Of a stretch of DNA of 21,444 nt, positions 1 to 11,406 are shown piece by piece. The stretch's first letter is position 1; every line of letters starts with the position of its first letter. The stretch lies in UHGV virus genome UHGV-1982450, one strand, 5' to 3'. The DNA is from a virus. A program made the translations under genes and the position numbers. The notes under the pieces were generated by a model. It saw only the letters and a program-made list of their open reading frames with translations. It had not been told where the DNA came from and made no database searches.

Positions 1-35
1 AAGGCCTTTGAATAAGACAAAAGGCTGCCTCATCG

Positions 36-218
36 CTAACTTTGCAACAGTGCCCTTTTATCTCTCATAACCACCAGCGTCGATGCCGCCGGAGATTGGT
101 ATTTGAATATTCTGGCCTGCGGTGCTGGCTTTGCCTCAGAGACAGGAATAGGACGAGATTGACATGCAGTGATAAGTAACGCGGAGGCAGCAACCAGAGG
201 AAGTAATACGTGTTTCAT
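36..218 (-). CDS. Small putative lipoprotein. The ORF extends to 254, but an internal Met at 216-218 gives a signal peptide MKHVLLPLVAASALLITAC with lipobox LITAC.
   Basis: Basic n-region, hydrophobic h-region and L-I-T-A-C lipobox read from the translation. The upstream ATG at 252-254 lies inside a GC hairpin and has no Shine-Dalgarno. No recognisable homology. Confidence 0.45.
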   Translation of the reverse strand: MKHVLLPLVAASALLITACQSRPIPVSEAKPAPQARIFKYQSPAASTLVVMRDKRALLQS

Positions 219-2611: not shown

Positions 2612-3251
2612 GCTGAAGCCAACCACCAATACCACCGTGGCCAACCAGTATTGGGGGCGGTACGTGAACAACAACTTTGCGGTGATCAGCCGTTCCGTTG
2701 TGGACACTCAGTACCGCGGTGTCGGCGTCTCCTATCGAATGATTAACCTGGTTAGCAGGATGCACGACCGGCCAATCATCGAGATCCAGTCGTCGATGAG
2801 CAAATACAACCCGTTCGCCATGAAAGCAGGGTTCCAGTTCATCCGTCCGGAGCGTCCGAAGAGCTATGAGAGTGCGTTGCGCGTCTTCCAGCGTCATTTC
2901 CGTTCCGACCCTGGCGACAACGAAGCGATCGTCAAAGAGCTGTTTGCCATGAGTGAGTCTCGCCGTCGTCGTGCGCTGCGTGATCTGGTCGCTGACTACC
3001 ACAAGAACAGTTCCCTGGCCAAAGCCGGGCGTAATCGTGGCACGACGATTCAGGACATTGCCGACAGCCTGGTGGACGAGGCCAGCATCGTGAAGCTGCT
3101 CAAGGACATTCACAACCTGAGCTTCACGTCTCCGCTGTATGGCGTGTACCGAAACCCGGACTTTGGTCGTCAGCTGCCGGACACGCTGCCACTGCTGGCA
3201 TTCGACAAACAGCCTTTGAATAAACCTCTTGAAATTGCATTACCGGCATAA
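2601..3251 (+). CDS. Hypothetical protein; the N-terminal part carries a GNAT-like motif A/B pattern (QYRGVGVSYRMINLV ... NPFAMKAGFQF)
   Basis: 216-aa ORF overlapping the ParB-like ORF by 11 nt in a different frame. Frame 0 is open only from 2535, so it cannot extend further upstream. No good Shine-Dalgarno before 2601. Confidence 0.5.
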   Translation: MFPKLKPTTNTTVANQYWGRYVNNNFAVISRSVVDTQYRGVGVSYRMINLVSRMHDRPIIEIQSSMSKYNPFAMKAGFQFIRPERPKSYESALRVFQRHFRSDPGDNEAIVKELFAMSESRRRRALRDLVADYHKNSSLAKAGRNRGTTIQDIADSLVDEASIVKLLKDIHNLSFTSPLYGVYRNPDFGRQLPDTLPLLAFDKQPLNKPLEIALPA

Positions 3252-7253: not shown

Positions 7254-8021
7254 ATGAATCTGTGGCAAATGCTTATGGCCCGTCGTGGCCTGATGGATGT
7301 AGCCGAAGCGCATGAGCGCGGCGGCGCTGGTGGCGGTGCTCCTGCTGGAGACAATGAGCAGAGCATTCAAGACCCAGGCAAACAGGGCGAGCAAAAAGAG
7401 CAACCGAAGGGTGACGACGATGAGTATGCCGGTATGACTCAGGAAGAGTTGCTGGCAGAACTGCGTAAGTCTAAGAAAGCCGGTGCTGATCTGTTGAAAG
7501 AGAACATGAAGCGCAAGGAGAAAGAGCGCACATTGGCCGATCAGCTGGCTCAGTACGGTGATATTGACCCGACGCGTGCTCGTCAGCTTCTCGAAGCTGA
7601 ACAAGCCGCAGAAACCGCACGTCGGGAGGCGGAGCAGGCTGAACTGGAACGTCGTGGTGAGTTCGATGCTGTGAAAAAGCAGATGATCGAAGCACACCAG
7701 ACTGAACTGGCACAGCGCGACGAACGCTACTCCGCTCTGGAGAGCGAGAACGCCGCACTGAAGGCTCAACTGGTCGAAATGACTGTTGGTGTTTCCTTCA
7801 GCAGTTCTGCTTTCCTGCGTGACAAAGTTCTGATGACTCCGGCTATTGGCCTTGCACAAATTGCTGACGTTATGCCTCAAGTTTCTGCCGCAATGGATAA
7901 AGCGCAAGGCAATATCTCCAGTGGAGATACGGTACGCATCATCTTTGGCGTAGCTACCATTCTTGTGGCAGCATTCATTGCCTGGTCCCAGGTTCGCAAG
8001 CACCAGAAAGGATTAGTGTAA
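7254..8021 (+). CDS. Coiled-coil protein with a C-terminal transmembrane anchor (possibly scaffold- or lysis-related; function unknown)
   Basis: Long charged heptad-rich helical region (EAEQAAETARREAEQAELERR) and a C-terminal hydrophobic helix IIFGVATILVAAFIAW. Confidence 0.5.
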   Translation: MNLWQMLMARRGLMDVAEAHERGGAGGGAPAGDNEQSIQDPGKQGEQKEQPKGDDDEYAGMTQEELLAELRKSKKAGADLLKENMKRKEKERTLADQLAQYGDIDPTRARQLLEAEQAAETARREAEQAELERRGEFDAVKKQMIEAHQTELAQRDERYSALESENAALKAQLVEMTVGVSFSSSAFLRDKVLMTPAIGLAQIADVMPQVSAAMDKAQGNISSGDTVRIIFGVATILVAAFIAWSQVRKHQKGLV

Positions 8022-8275: not shown

Positions 8276-8411
8276 GCCACAGACCACCAGCGTGTTGTTC
8301 TGCGATGGCGCTGAACCTATTTATATCAGCAATGACGATGTAATGACCGAAGAAACCGAACGCCAAATCCTTTTTCACAATACGATGGGAGAGAGAGTTT
8401 GCGGTTGGTGA
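8196..8411 (+). CDS. Putative o-spanin-like outer-membrane lipoprotein (Rz1-like), overlapping the preceding gene out of frame
   Basis: Signal peptide MRRTVKYVRKMLLPFIVSCMISGC with lipobox ISGC. The short mature domain carries extra cysteines. An alternative start lies at 8226. Confidence 0.4.
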   Translation: MRRTVKYVRKMLLPFIVSCMISGCVIKPQTTSVLFCDGAEPIYISNDDVMTEETERQILFHNTMGERVCGW

Positions 8412-8421
8412 TGTCGAAGTT

Positions 8422-8437
8422 CCCCTCAAATGAGGGG
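8422..8437. terminator. Candidate hairpin (CCCCTC-AAAT-GAGGGG) between the convergent spanin-like and GNAT toxin genes
   Basis: 6-bp GC stem with a 4-nt loop, followed on the plus strand by a moderately U-rich stretch ACAUUAUUCUU. Confidence 0.35.
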
Positions 8438-8443
8438 GACACA

Positions 8444-8965
8444 TTATTCTTCGAACAATTTTTCGATAGATTTTGTTGGATAGAACAAAGAACGATCGTT
8501 GTTACCAACCAGCTGGATAAAGCCCAAACTTTTATAAAACGCCCTGGCTTTATCGTTCAACGCCTCAACGAAAAGCCCATGAATGCCTACCGCAAGAGAT
8601 GCATTGTACACAACACGCATTGCGTGAGTTACAAGCATTGAGCCAAGCCCCTGACCTTGAAGAGATTTGTCCAAAGCCAGTCTGCCTAAAGTGATACTTG
8701 GGACATGCCGATAAGGCACTTTCTTTTGCTGACTCTTTGAAGGTAAGGTTTCTTTCTCAAAGCAGCTGCCTGACAAAGTGTAATAACCTAATACCTTTGG
8801 TATTTCTTCTTTAGTGCAAAGCACATAAGCGCGAAGAATTTTTCCTTCATGCTGTCTTTTTAAGTGGTTGGTCAAAAATGCGTTTAGCGACTCTTCGCCG
8901 CAATCAAAACCGTTTAGATCATAATCTTTCTCTCCAGAGAAAATCTCGATCGTCGTATTGCTCAC
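8444..8965 (-). CDS. GNAT-family acetyltransferase toxin of the TacT/AtaT/KacT type (aminoacyl-tRNA acetylating toxin family)
   Basis: Family-typical motifs FDCG, LGRLALDKSLQGQGLG and YKSLGF. Lies immediately downstream of, and co-oriented with, a DUF1778-type antitoxin gene. Confidence 0.9.
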   Translation of the reverse strand: MSNTTIEIFSGEKDYDLNGFDCGEESLNAFLTNHLKRQHEGKILRAYVLCTKEEIPKVLGYYTLSGSCFEKETLPSKSQQKKVPYRHVPSITLGRLALDKSLQGQGLGSMLVTHAMRVVYNASLAVGIHGLFVEALNDKARAFYKSLGFIQLVGNNDRSLFYPTKSIEKLFEE

Positions 8966-8972
8966 GAGTAAA

Positions 8973-9242
8973 TTACTCCATGCTTTTCAGACGATTGGCA
9001 GCTCGTTTCAGCTTGTCGTTCGGTGCCGGAGGATTGCTTATAGCATCCATAACCAGATTCCAGGACTCTTCACTTAGAACCAGTCTACGGTGTTGCTCTA
9101 TCACCTTCACGGCACGTTCGGATGCACTGCTAACCATGAACTGGGTAATGCTCTGGTTAGACATTGCGGCAGCTTCCTCGATGATGCTTTTATCGTCATC
9201 GGTTAATCTCAAATCGATGCGCTGCTTTTTCAGTGCGGACAT
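8973..9242 (-). CDS. DUF1778-family antitoxin (TacA-like RHH antitoxin)
   Basis: 89-aa protein whose N-terminal RHH region (RIDLRLTDDDKSIIEEAAAMSNQSITQFMV) and C-terminal toxin-binding helix match the DUF1778 pattern. Separated by 7 nt from the GNAT toxin gene. Confidence 0.85.
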   Translation of the reverse strand: MSALKKQRIDLRLTDDDKSIIEEAAAMSNQSITQFMVSSASERAVKVIEQHRRLVLSEESWNLVMDAISNPPAPNDKLKRAANRLKSME

Positions 9243-9510
9243 GTGTACCCCCTGATGGCCGGTGATGTAGGAAGGCCATCATTGCTCTCTATTTAAACTG
9301 AGTTTTCGACTCAAAGGTTATTTAACTGGGCTATAGCCCATTGCGTATGTGTCATCAAATTGTGTACGGCAATTTACCGTACTCGTAATATAGAGGTGAT
9401 TGTCACTTTTTTCAACAGACAAATGAAAACAGTTACTAGCAATAGGCAATAACAACCTACTAAATAACCTTTACACCGCAGCCGTAGGCATTTAGGCTAT
9501 ATCGCATATA

Positions 9511-9561: not shown

Positions 9562-10227
9562 ATGACCAAGATCATTGTGGTTGGCGGCACAAAAGGCGGC
9601 CCAGGCAAATCTACCGTTGCCCAGCAAATTGCGGTATGTCTCAAAGTTAAAAAGAAAAAGAAGGTTCACGTCACCGATATCGATATCCAGCGCACCACGA
9701 CCAGCTGGTGTGAAGACCGTCGCCAGAACGAAGATCTTGAACTGATCCCGTTCGCTTATGTGCAGGACGACATCGTCAAACATCTTAAATCGCTTCAGGG
9801 GCGAACTGATTATGTAGTGGTAGATGCTGGTGGCTTTGACTCCGAAATTCAGCGTCTGGCGATGCTTATGGCTGATGTAATCATCATCCCGCTGCGCCCT
9901 AAACGTCGTGATTTGAAATCTCTGCGTGATATCGACCCGATTATCGACAACGTTCGCAATGTGAACGAGAAAGTTAAGATCCGCGCGGTAATAAACCAGT
10001 GTCCGTCATTGCCTTCCCAGGTATCACGTATTCTGGCCGCGAAGGAAATTGTCGAAACTTTCGGCATCGAGGCTGCGCCGGTTAACCTGTACAACCGTAA
10101 CGTTTATGACGATGCGGAAGAGGCAGGTCGTTCTATCTTTGAAATGACTGGCGCTGAACGCGATAAGAAGGCAGAAGCCGAGTTCGAAGAGTTTGTAGAT
10201 TACATCTTGAGTCTGGAGGAAGAATAA
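9562..10227 (+). CDS. parA: ParA/ParF-type partition ATPase (small deviant Walker-A ATPase)
   Basis: Deviant Walker A GGTKGGPGKST at the N-terminus, size of about 221 aa typical of type Ib ParA/ParF, and a coupled downstream small RHH gene. Confidence 0.9.
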   Translation: MTKIIVVGGTKGGPGKSTVAQQIAVCLKVKKKKKVHVTDIDIQRTTTSWCEDRRQNEDLELIPFAYVQDDIVKHLKSLQGRTDYVVVDAGGFDSEIQRLAMLMADVIIIPLRPKRRDLKSLRDIDPIIDNVRNVNEKVKIRAVINQCPSLPSQVSRILAAKEIVETFGIEAAPVNLYNRNVYDDAEEAGRSIFEMTGAERDKKAEAEFEEFVDYILSLEEE

Positions 10228-10586
10228 TGTCCATGAGAATGGGAGACCTTGCAAAGCGCAATGAGCCTAAAGAACCGGCCAAAAGCAGCACTCCACTGCG
10301 CCAGCCAGTCAGACCGCAGGGGCGTCCGACTCGTGGCAAAGAGAAAATTAAAAGTCGCACAATGTCACTGGAAGACGAATACTTCGAACTGCTGGAGATG
10401 ATGAAGTTCATCCCTCGTTTCGAGAAGTTCACCCGTTCTGACGTGATTCGCGCTGCTATTTTCCATCTGGCAGAGAAGTCACCGCAGGAAATCGAGGACA
10501 TCGTGAAACTTAACGAGGCGATCACAGCTGCCGATGTCACGATGCGTACCGATGAAATCAAACGAGAGTTGATGAAGAAAGGTTAA
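10227..10586 (+). CDS. ParG-like centromere-binding protein (basic disordered N-tail plus C-terminal RHH)
   Basis: Start overlaps the parA stop (TAATG). Basic N-terminal tail and C-terminal RHH pattern SLEDEYFELLEMM ... RSDVIRAAIFHL. Confidence 0.6.
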   Translation: MSMRMGDLAKRNEPKEPAKSSTPLRQPVRPQGRPTRGKEKIKSRTMSLEDEYFELLEMMKFIPRFEKFTRSDVIRAAIFHLAEKSPQEIEDIVKLNEAITAADVTMRTDEIKRELMKKG

Positions 10587-10638: not shown

Positions 10639-11406
10639 TTATGCCGCGCTAACACTATGTTCATTCCTAACCACCCCAACCTTCACAAAAGGGCTGCCGT
10701 AGCTTGGTGGCTTCTTGATTAATTTGCCTACATACAGTTTTCTAATATGCTCATCGGCTATTCTGCCAACAAATTCATAACGTTTTGTGTCGGGGCCAAG
10801 AGCTATATCCCTTGTAAAGTACTGCTGAGAACCGGCTTTGACCCAGCATTCAATCTGATAAACTTCCATTATCAGGCCCCCATATGTAGCGTAGGCATAT
10901 TTGAGATTCTCGTCTCTTGGAACCTTTGCCCATACGCCACGCGTAGCTTCATATAATGCCAGAGCGGACATTCCTGACTTGTAGGTGCTGTTTAGCAGGA
11001 AGGCAAGACCGGCGTGCTCAGGAGCAATTTCAGTTTCCTCTTGCAGCACTAAGTGATGGTAGGCGTCCAGTGATATTCTGCCCATCATGGAACCACTTCC
11101 TCGTACCTTATTCGTAAGCTCTCCGACCCCCATAAGGTCGATGCATGTCGCCTCAACAAGTTTGGCTGTGGTTTCATCCATACCATGACGAAGAATATCT
11201 ATGCCTAATTTTTTATTAGCCAAAAGTTCTTTGATCCGCATGGATTTGGGAGAGTCATCGGGATACTTGATGTGATCGAGACAACGAGTCGATTTGCCTT
11301 TTCCTATGTAAAACGGTCTTTTCATCTTGTCTTCTGTATCATAGAGACAGTAAACATAGTATTTAGCCTTATCCAATGATCTCGCGTATACCGATAAATC
11401 GTCCAT
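10639..11406 (-). CDS. GIY-YIG nuclease domain protein with an uncharacterised C-terminal domain of about 150 aa
   Basis: N-terminal GIY-YIG motif YYVYCLYD ... PFYIGKGKSTRCLDH. The C-terminal half has no motif I recognise. Confidence 0.7.
   Translation of the reverse strand: MDDLSVYARSLDKAKYYVYCLYDTEDKMKRPFYIGKGKSTRCLDHIKYPDDSPKSMRIKELLANKKLGIDILRHGMDETTAKLVEATCIDLMGVGELTNKVRGSGSMMGRISLDAYHHLVLQEETEIAPEHAGLAFLLNSTYKSGMSALALYEATRGVWAKVPRDENLKYAYATYGGLIMEVYQIECWVKAGSQQYFTRDIALGPDTKRYEFVGRIADEHIRKLYVGKLIKKPPSYGSPFVKVGVVRNEHSVSAA

What the first reader, a model, noticed from the sequence alone, without database searches (positions are those of the whole stretch)
8444..9242. TacA/TacT-type (DUF1778 plus GNAT) toxin-antitoxin module on a mobile backbone
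The antitoxin-then-toxin order, the short 7-nt gap and the GNAT toxin motifs match the family whose toxins acetylate aminoacyl-tRNA. The module sits next to the partition genes and is divergently transcribed from parA, consistent with a plasmid-type addiction or abortive-infection role. Dyads in the leader (GGGCTATAGCCC at 9328-9339 and TGATGGCC ... GGCCATCA at 9253-9281) are candidate autoregulatory operators.
Basis: partly seen in the sequence, partly recalled or inferred. Interest (0 to 1): 0.45.

Follow-up and report, generated by a model that had tools for sequence, protein, structure and literature searches.

The report
AtaRT/KacAT-type toxin-antitoxin on a phage-plasmid
This is an intact but ordinary toxin-antitoxin pair of the well-studied AtaR-AtaT/KacA-KacT family, whose toxin acetylates charged tRNAs, carried as accessory cargo beside the partition genes of an SSU5-like phage-plasmid of E. 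coli.

Summary
An 89-aa DUF1778/TacA1 antitoxin (8973-9242, minus) lies 7 nt upstream of a 173-aa GNAT toxin (8444-8965, minus), and the pair is divergent from parA.

The closest relatives are not Salmonella TacAT. They are the crystallised E. coli AtaR-AtaT pair (75% and 68% identity, gapless) and the K. pneumoniae KacA-KacT pair. The acetyl-CoA glycine G108, the catalytic Y144 and the antitoxin DNA-reading residues R8, D10 and R12 are all kept. dN/dS against the phage Cyrano allele is about 0.05.

The published KacAT/AtaRT operator motif GTACGG-N7-CCGTAC occurs once in the window, at 9364-9382, 4 nt after a -10 box.

The module is a roughly 1.07-kb cassette in a variable slot between the lysis genes and parA of an SSU5-like phage-plasmid. 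This copy of the phage-plasmid has lost about 27 kb of capsid, tail and lysis genes.

The orthologue in phage Cyrano is already published as an expressed "KacT" moron. I score the finding as already known and of low interest. Plasmid addiction is the likeliest role but is untested.

The parts
8973..9242 (-). Antitoxin gene (AtaR/KacA-like), 89 aa, with an N-terminal ribbon-helix-helix and a C-terminal toxin-binding region.
   Evidence: Pfam TacA1/DUF1778 E 3.5e-26. PDB matches KacA 5zgn_A E 2.5e-41 and AtaR 6ajm_C E 5e-40, full length. Identity is 75% to AtaR and 79% to KacA; R8, D10 and R12 are identical.
8444..8965 (-). Toxin gene (AtaT/KacT-like GNAT acetyltransferase), 173 aa, GTG start.
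   Evidence: Pfam GNAT. PDB matches AtaT 6gts_A E 5.6e-78, residues 1-172 to 1-172 without gaps, and KacT 5zgn_C E 3e-75. Identity to AtaT is 68%; G108 and Y144 are kept. dN/dS is 0.058 against Cyrano.
8966..8979 (-). The 7-nt intercistronic gap plus a GGAG ribosome-binding site (8976-8979) embedded in the end of the antitoxin gene. This suggests coupled translation.
   Evidence: Read directly from the sequence.
9387..9415 (-). Predicted sigma-70 promoter of the operon: -35 TTGAAA (9415-9410), 17-nt spacer, -10 TATATT (9392-9387).
   Evidence: Consensus scan, 10 of 12 matches. Invariant in the Cyrano allele. The same -35/17/-10/4-nt/operator layout is found upstream of the p4422IncF and ataRT homologues.
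9364..9382 (.). Probable operator: palindrome GTACGG-N7-CCGTAC, starting 4 nt after the -10 box and spanning the expected transcription start.
   Evidence: It is the only match in the window, with 0.01 expected by chance. It has the same half-sites and spacing as the crystallised KacAT operator AAATGTACGGTTATTAACCGTACATGA (PMC6698736) and as the ataRT, p4422IncF and Cyrano upstream regions. The half-sites are invariant against Cyrano while the spacer differs at 3 of 7 positions.
9243..9363 (-). Long 5' leader (about 138 nt from the predicted start site). It holds three short hairpin-forming dyads and the Shine-Dalgarno GGGGG (9248-9252). The dyads are 9328-9339 GGGCTATAGCCC, 9299-9313 TGAGT-N5-ACTCA and 9253-9281 TGATGGCC-N13-GGCCATCA.
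   Evidence: The dyads are confirmed. All three form in the RNA fold, but the overall z-score is only -1.1. The stems are conserved in the Cyrano allele and the last loop is shorter by 1 nt. No function has been shown.
8419..8440 (.). G+C-rich hairpin between the convergent ends of Rz1 and the toxin gene, 4 nt beyond the toxin stop codon. It is terminator-like.
   Evidence: Terminator scan. It lies inside the segment that has no SSU5 counterpart.
8394..9464 (.). Extent of the accessory cassette: the segment with no counterpart in phage SSU5, whose homology stops at 8393 and resumes at 9465.
   Evidence: Local blastn of the window against the SSU5 locus. SSU5 carries SSU5_031/032 here and pJN2-26 carries another unrelated gene.
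9562..10227 (+). Divergent neighbour parA (partition ATPase). It is context and not part of the module.
   Evidence: NCBIfam ParA_partition E 3.7e-34, which at 118 bits is below that model's curated cut-off of 180. Also Pfam MipZ/AAA_31/CbiA and PHROG 164.

Best explanation
This is a functional type II toxin-antitoxin operon of the AtaR-AtaT/KacA-KacT group (GNAT clade A). It is carried as an accessory cassette (about 8394-9464) in the variable slot between the lysis genes and parA of an SSU5-like phage-plasmid.

Proposed mechanism:
- Transcription starts from the promoter at 9415-9387 on the minus strand.
- An antitoxin4-toxin2 complex represses it by binding the GTACGG-N7-CCGTAC palindrome at 9364-9382 over the start site. 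The antitoxin ribbon-helix-helix residues R8, D10 and R12 read the half-sites.
- One mRNA gives antitoxin first, then toxin.
- The free toxin dimer uses acetyl-CoA (G108 loop, catalytic Y144) to acetylate the alpha-amino group of charged tRNAs. For AtaT and KacT these are Gly-tRNA and hydrophobic aminoacyl-tRNAs, including initiator Met-tRNA. This stops translation.
- The C-terminal half of the antitoxin wraps the toxin and blocks it.
- In cells that lose the element, the labile antitoxin decays and the toxin arrests growth. The module therefore backs up ParA-based partition as a post-segregational addiction device.

What is shown here: gene content, family placement, conserved residues, the operator motif and its position, purifying selection and genomic context.

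What is inferred from characterised homologues: toxicity, tRNA targets, hexamer formation, repression, antitoxin lability and the addiction role.
For: - Family placement: full-length, gapless, 68% identity to crystallised AtaT and a comparable score to KacT. The antitoxin is 75% identical to AtaR and 79% to KacA.
- Residues: G108 and Y144 are kept, as are 15 of 20 AtaT residues that PMC7595197 describes as contacting the tRNA, lining the aminoacyl pocket or reducing toxicity when mutated. KacA R8, D10 and R12, shown to be needed for operator binding, are identical.
- Operator: the motif is unique in the window and matches the crystallised KacAT operator and four other homologous loci with the same promoter-operator spacing.
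- Selection: dN/dS is 0.058 for the toxin and 0.038 for the antitoxin against the Cyrano allele.
- Expression: the Cyrano orthologue (93% and 98% aa identity) is transcribed 35-fold and 60-fold above local background in the lysogen and is listed as the KacT-CYRAN27 moron (PMC9928086).
- tRNA targets: clade A toxins AtaT and KacT acetylate Gly- and hydrophobic aa-tRNAs in vivo (PMC9177977).
- Precedent: a GNAT toxin-antitoxin pair (GmvAT) promotes vertical transmission of Shigella pINV (PMC6519299).
- Distribution: about 143 PLSDB plasmids carry the module, mostly non-mobilizable elements of around 105-115 kb.
Against: - Nothing here tests toxicity, neutralisation, tRNA acetylation or plasmid stabilisation for this allele.
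- Five tRNA-contact or pocket residues differ from AtaT (A26S, R40E, N41G, R71K, K79Q), so target preference could differ.
- The promoter is a consensus match only. The scan found no more promoter-like sites in this region than in shuffled sequence. The transcription start is not mapped.
- About 30% of complete E. coli genomes carry chromosomal ataRT, and strain 1585m1 carries both copies. If chromosomal AtaR cross-neutralises the plasmid toxin, addiction would be weakened in those hosts.
- The roughly 138-nt leader with conserved hairpins is not explained by the model.
Confidence: 0.8

Rival explanations
1. The module is mainly an anti-phage abortive-infection or defence moron of the phage-plasmid. 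Infection by another phage would deplete the antitoxin or release the toxin, and translation arrest would abort the infection. Plasmid addiction would be secondary.
For: It sits in a variable cargo slot whose occupant differs between SSU5, pJN2-26 and this lineage. A neighbouring accessory gene (10639-11406, minus) matches the PD-T4-3 defence model at E 1.3e-23. The orthologue is expressed in the lysogenic state.
Against: No PADLOC model matches either protein. None of the papers retrieved here report phage defence by AtaRT, KacAT or TacAT homologues. Its position directly next to parA and the precedent of GmvAT fit addiction at least as well. The two roles do not exclude each other.
Confidence: 0.15
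2. The reader's dyads (9253-9281 and 9328-9339) are the autoregulatory operators bound by the antitoxin.
For: Both are perfect dyads and their stems are conserved in the 83%-identical Cyrano leader.
Against: Neither resembles the GTACGG half-site read by R8, D10 and R12 in the KacAT-DNA structure, and those residues are identical here. They lie 40-125 nt downstream of the predicted start site, not over the promoter. Each occurs in about 8-9% of shuffles. The ataRT and p4422IncF homologues lack them but keep the GTACGG-N7-CCGTAC site.
Confidence: 0.07
3. It is a decayed or domesticated remnant: either the toxin is inactive, or the GNAT is an ordinary acetyltransferase with an unrelated small regulator.
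For: The surrounding element is itself defective, with a 27-kb deletion. PGAP labels the genes only generically.
Against: Both ORFs are full length. The catalytic and cofactor residues are intact. dN/dS is about 0.05 for both genes. The toxin has 68% gapless identity to a proven toxin.
Confidence: 0.03

Closest known systems
AtaR-AtaT of E. coli O157:H7 (PDB 6GTS, 6AJM, 6GTQ; chromosomal, between livJ and panM)
   Same: Same two-gene order and sizes, with a 6-7-nt gap. The toxin is 68% and the antitoxin 75% identical, with gapless alignments. G108, Y144, R8, D10 and R12 are identical. The operator has the same GTACGG-N7-CCGTAC form, 4 nt after a -10 box.
   Different: This copy is on a phage-plasmid, not the chromosome. 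Its leader is about 138 nt with three hairpins, against about 24 nt between operator and ATG in ataRT. Five tRNA-contact or pocket residues differ.
KacA-KacT of Klebsiella pneumoniae HS11286 (PDB 5ZGN with operator DNA, 5XUN)
   Same: The antitoxin is 79% identical over 87 residues. The toxin matches at E 3e-75, full length. The operator half-sites and spacing match the crystallised 27-mer. KacAT is regulated by conditional cooperativity through a KacT-KacA2-KacA2-KacT hexamer.
   Different: The 7-nt operator spacer differs. KacA Q70 and R77 are N70 and K77 here, as in AtaR. The host and replicon also differ.
CYRAN_26/CYRAN_27 of Escherichia phage Cyrano (the SSU5-like phage-plasmid of E. coli LF82)
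   Same: It is the orthologue in the same slot between Rz1 and parA. Amino-acid identity is 93% and 98%, with the same promoter, operator and leader hairpins. It is published as an expressed KacT-type moron.
   Different: The leader is about 83% identical. The Cyrano record starts the antitoxin 12 codons further upstream, at an ATG that is out of frame in this window. Cyrano is an intact, virion-producing phage, whereas this element has lost its structural genes.
TacA-TacT (and TacAT2/3) of Salmonella Typhimurium, and ItaRT, AtaT2 and GmvAT
   Same: Same superfamily architecture (DUF1778 RHH antitoxin plus GNAT toxin) and the same chemistry, acetylation of aminoacyl-tRNA. GmvAT is a plasmid-maintenance module.
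   Different: They are much more distant (E 1e-21 to 1e-12 against 1e-78). They fall in different clades with different tRNA preferences (PMC9177977).

Membership tests
GNAT/DUF1778 (TacAT-superfamily) type II toxin-antitoxin systems | The antitoxin carries the DUF1778/TacA1 ribbon-helix-helix domain. | tested here: met
   Pfam PF08681 E 3.5e-26, 91 bits against a cut-off of 21, covering 8-86 of 89 aa.
GNAT/DUF1778 (TacAT-superfamily) type II toxin-antitoxin systems | The toxin is a GNAT-fold acetyltransferase with an acetyl-CoA loop and a catalytic tyrosine. | tested here: met
   Pfam Acetyltransf_1 and Acetyltransf_7 are above their cut-offs. The Q-G-Q-G-x-G loop with G108 and Y144 align gaplessly to AtaT.
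GNAT/DUF1778 (TacAT-superfamily) type II toxin-antitoxin systems | Adjacent, co-oriented genes with the antitoxin first and a short gap. | tested here: met
   7-nt gap, same strand, with the ribosome-binding site inside the end of the antitoxin gene.
GNAT/DUF1778 (TacAT-superfamily) type II toxin-antitoxin systems | The toxin arrests growth and the cognate antitoxin neutralises it. The toxin acetylates aminoacyl-tRNA. | not testable with these tools
   This needs expression assays and LC-MS of aa-tRNA. It is inferred from 68% identity to AtaT.
AtaRT/KacAT subgroup (GNAT clade A) | Close full-length similarity of both proteins to AtaT/AtaR and KacT/KacA, better than to other GNAT toxin groups. 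| tested here: met
   AtaT scores E 5.6e-78 and KacT 3e-75, against 5e-21 or weaker for TacT-type chains. KacA scores 2.5e-41 and AtaR 5e-40.
AtaRT/KacAT subgroup (GNAT clade A) | Operator is a GTACGG-N7-CCGTAC pseudo-palindrome at the transcription start, read by antitoxin residues R8, D10 and R12. | tested here: met
   The motif occurs once, at 9364-9382, 4 nt after the -10 box. The residues are identical. It matches the operators of KacAT and ataRT. Binding itself was not tested.
AtaRT/KacAT subgroup (GNAT clade A) | tRNA acceptor-stem contact residues and aminoacyl pocket as in AtaT, which set the broad Gly and hydrophobic specificity. | tested here: inconclusive
   15 of 20 listed residues are identical. 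A26S, R40E, N41G, R71K and K79Q differ. The effect on specificity is unknown.
Salmonella TacAT proper (TacT, TacT2, TacT3) | Orthology-level similarity to TacT-type chains. | tested here: not met
   Only E 5e-21 to 7e-12 to the TacT-group structures (6g96, 7ak7, 5fvj). That is about 55 or more orders of magnitude weaker than the match to AtaT.
Plasmid addiction (post-segregational killing) modules | Located on a low-copy extrachromosomal replicon, and loss of the replicon leads to toxin-mediated arrest. | not testable with these tools
   The location criterion is met: SSU5-like phage-plasmids, next to parA. Killing after loss was not tested. GmvAT is a precedent.
Catalogued anti-phage defence systems (PADLOC-DB 2.0.0) | Either protein matches a defence-system model. 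| tested here: not met
   No families at E <= 0.01 for either protein.

The most novel reading that the evidence does not exclude
The phage-plasmid copy may be more than a plain addiction module. Its roughly 138-nt leader carries three conserved hairpins. Chromosomal ataRT lacks this leader, although an IncF plasmid homologue also has a long one. The leader could add post-transcriptional control tied to the element's lifestyle. The module could also interact with the chromosomal ataRT found in about 30% of E. coli, through anti-addiction or exclusion, or it could act in phage defence.
Probability: 0.1. Interest if true: 0.4.

Novelty: already known. Interest (0 to 1): 0.1.

Why it matters
It matters little as a discovery. 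The family is structurally and biochemically well characterised, and the orthologue in an SSU5-like phage-plasmid is already published as an expressed KacT-type moron.

There are three practical points:
- RefSeq labels these genes only as "GNAT family N-acetyltransferase" and "DUF1778 domain-containing protein". They can be named AtaT/KacT-like toxin and AtaR/KacA-like antitoxin.
- The operator can be placed at 9364-9382, so binding assays should use that fragment.
- The module probably helps a defective, resistance-plasmid-fused remnant of a phage-plasmid persist by vertical inheritance.

Tried and rejected
- Rfam scan of the whole window: no family reached threshold, so the leader is not a known RNA element.
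- RNA folding of the leader: the hairpins form, but stability is not unusual (z -1.1 for the window, -0.5 for Cyrano). I did not claim a structured regulatory RNA.
- Covariation could not be tested. Only two leader alleles exist (about 100% and about 83% identity groups), and the stems are invariant between them.
- PADLOC scan for a defence role: nothing for either toxin-antitoxin protein.
- Pfam on the alternative occupants of the slot (SSU5_031, SSU5_032, pJN226_0081): no hits, so the slot's other cargo stays uncharacterised.
- A large phage-plasmid survey preprint (10.1101/2025.09.12.675607) mentions toxin-antitoxin systems only for P1-like elements and says nothing on this module.
- I did not run the large protein-database searches or a structure prediction. 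Solved structures at 68-79% identity already answer the family question.

Full report
**Observation**

The antitoxin is 8973..9242 on the minus strand (ATG start, 89 aa). The toxin is 8444..8965 on the minus strand (GTG start, 173 aa). They are separated by 7 nt (8966-8972), and a GGAG ribosome-binding site lies inside the last antitoxin codons.

The antitoxin matches Pfam TacA1/DUF1778 at E 3.5e-26. The toxin matches several GNAT models above their curated cut-offs. parA (9562..10227, plus strand) is divergent across a 319-bp spacer.

In 3000 mononucleotide shuffles of the spacer, a palindrome with arms of at least 6 nt appears in 9% of shuffles, and a perfect 8-nt inverted repeat with a 3-20-nt loop appears in 8%. 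The dyads are real but individually only mildly unusual.

**Which family**

Against all PDB sequences, the toxin aligns residue 1-172 to residue 1-172, without gaps, to E. coli O157:H7 AtaT (6gts_A, E 5.6e-78). It aligns almost as well to K. pneumoniae KacT (5zgn_C, E 3.1e-75). The TacT-type chains score only E 5e-21 to 7e-12. The antitoxin matches KacA (E 2.5e-41) and AtaR (E 5e-40) over its full length.

Measured identities:

| Protein | Compared with | Identity |
|---|---|---|
| Toxin | AtaT | 68% |
| Antitoxin | AtaR | 75% |
| Antitoxin | KacA | 79% |

The module therefore belongs to the AtaRT/KacAT group. This is clade A of Bikmetov et al., whose toxins acetylate Gly-tRNA and hydrophobic aminoacyl-tRNAs in vivo (PMC9177977). 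It is not Salmonella TacAT proper.

Because the alignment is gapless, AtaT numbering applies directly. G108 (G108D blocks acetyl-CoA binding) and the catalytic Y144 are kept. So are L27, F30, H34, R37, S76, K77, S78, K81, K82, Y85, R95, L136 and K165. PMC7595197 describes these as tRNA contacts, as aminoacyl-pocket residues or as sites where mutation reduces toxicity. Five positions differ: A26S, R40E, N41G, R71K and K79Q.

In the antitoxin, R8, D10 and R12 are identical. KacA uses these residues to read operator bases, and their mutation abolishes or weakens binding.

Against the allele in phage Cyrano, dN/dS is 0.058 for the toxin (dS 0.50) and 0.038 for the antitoxin. The module is not degenerate.

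**Regulation**

The KacAT hexamer was crystallised on 5'-AAATGTACGGTTATTAACCGTACATGA-3', a pseudo-palindrome that spans the kacAT transcription start (PMC6698736).

The pattern GTACGG-N7-CCGTAC occurs once in the 21.4-kb window, at 9364-9382, with 0.01 matches expected by chance. On the minus strand it begins 4 nt after a promoter-like site: -35 TTGAAA at 9415-9410, a 17-nt spacer, and -10 TATATT at 9392-9387.

Three other loci share the same layout of -35, 17 nt, -10, 4 nt and then GTACGG-N7-CCGTAC. They are chromosomal ataRT, an IncF plasmid homologue and phage Cyrano. Apart from Cyrano, their flanking sequence is unrelated to this window's.

Between the window and Cyrano, the hexamers and half-sites are invariant while 3 of the 7 spacer bases differ. 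This is the best operator candidate.

They form hairpins in RNA folds, together with a third hairpin (9299-9313), but the leader is not unusually stable, with z-scores of -1.1 and -0.5. Their stems are conserved in the Cyrano allele. With only two leader alleles in the databases, covariation cannot be assessed. Rfam finds nothing. I treat them as unexplained 5'-UTR features, not operators.

**Context**

The locus is 100% identical in several E. coli and Shigella plasmids. It is 90% identical in Escherichia phage Cyrano, where the genes are annotated "KacT Acetyltransferase-type toxin" and "putative antitoxin".

Phage SSU5 shares the flanks but not the module. Homology stops at window 8393 (the end of the Rz/Rz1 spanin genes) and resumes at 9465 (upstream of parA). 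SSU5 carries two unrelated genes in between, and Klebsiella phage pJN2-26 carries yet another. The module is therefore a cassette of about 1.07 kb in a variable cargo slot of SSU5-like phage-plasmids.

About 143 of 656 PLSDB plasmids that match this region carry the full module. In LF82, the Cyrano orthologue is transcribed 35-fold (toxin) and 60-fold (antitoxin) above the prophage background and is listed among the element's morons (PMC9928086).

**Most likely function**

[quoted passage not shown] The antitoxin neutralises it and, as an A4T2 hexamer, represses the operon. Loss of the element would free the toxin.

The module sits next to parA on a low-copy, non-mobilizable replicon. A GNAT toxin-antitoxin pair (GmvAT) is known to promote vertical transmission of Shigella pINV (PMC6519299). 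Post-segregational addiction is therefore the best-supported role, at roughly 60% for this role specifically.

A defence or abortive-infection role is not excluded but has no direct support, since there is no PADLOC match.

One caveat concerns cross-talk. About 1627 chromosomal ataRT copies occur in 5426 complete E. coli genomes. Strain 1585m1 carries both the plasmid module and chromosomal ataRT. Cross-neutralisation between chromosomal and plasmid GNAT/RHH pairs has been seen in Klebsiella (PMC9431474), so addiction may be blunted in such hosts.

**Novelty**

The family, its structures, its operator and its chemistry are all published. The orthologue in the same slot of the same kind of element has been described and shown to be expressed. 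Identical proteins are in RefSeq under generic names. The finding is correct but ordinary.

Noticed in passing
window 7254-8021 (+), breakpoint at about 7844/7845: This 255-aa ORF is a fusion. Its N-terminal part is a head scaffolding protein (PHROG 7069/206; DUF6651 in relatives) and its C-terminal roughly 60 aa is the end of the endolysin. Left of 7845 the window matches the packaging module of SSU5-like phages, and right of 7844 it matches the lysis-parA region. Relative to Klebsiella phage pJN2-26, about 27.5 kb is missing, covering the capsid, tail, tape measure, tail fibres, holin and most of the endolysin. Only 5 PLSDB plasmids carry this junction. The element is therefore a defective phage-plasmid that can only persist as a plasmid.
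   Followed up: partly
window 10639-11406 (-): This 255-aa protein has a GIY-YIG domain (Pfam LEM-3_GIY-YIG, E 5.5e-7). It matches the PADLOC model for the single-gene anti-phage system PD-T4-3 (E 1.3e-23, near full length). It looks like a second accessory, defence-like gene just beyond the partition genes.
   Followed up: no
window 1-54: The IS26 terminal inverted repeat GGCACTGTTGCAAA lies at 41-54 on the minus strand, so the window begins at the edge of an IS26 copy. The plasmids that match the window at 100% are 113-170 kb and typed IncFIA/IncFIB. This suggests the phage-plasmid remnant is fused with F-type plasmid sequence.
   Followed up: partly
L001 (phage Cyrano) 9674-9979 against window 9243-9281: The Cyrano record starts the antitoxin 12 codons upstream (MAFLHHGHQEEY-MSALKK...), at an ATG inside the TGATGGCC dyad. 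In this window a 1-nt difference in the hairpin loop puts that ATG out of frame. AtaR and KacA also start at MSA/MPA. The Cyrano start is probably mis-annotated.
   Followed up: yes
window 10227-10586 (+): This 119-aa ORF sits in the parB position, immediately after parA. Its Cyrano counterpart is annotated "RelE/ParE putative toxin", but it has no Pfam match here and only insignificant NCBIfam and PADLOC hits. It is more likely a small centromere-binding partner of ParA than a toxin.
   Followed up: no
L006 (E. coli 1585m1 chromosome) and L003 (its plasmid p1585m1_B): The same strain carries chromosomal ataRT (between livJ and panM) and the plasmid module identical to the window. The two are 65% identical at the DNA level and share operator half-sites. 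Cross-repression or cross-neutralisation is conceivable.
   Followed up: no
window 9243-9363; L005 about 2890-3001: The phage-plasmid copy and an IncF plasmid homologue (p4422IncF) both have leaders of about 115-140 nt between operator and start codon. Chromosomal ataRT has only about 24 nt. The phage-plasmid leader has three short hairpins with invariant stems in both known alleles. Their function is unknown.
   Followed up: partly
L002 4787-5943 (SSU5_031/032); L007 30505-31062 (pJN226_0081): The slot between Rz1 and parA holds different, uncharacterised genes in SSU5 and pJN2-26, with no Pfam match. This marks it as a cargo hotspot of SSU5-like phage-plasmids.
   Followed up: partly
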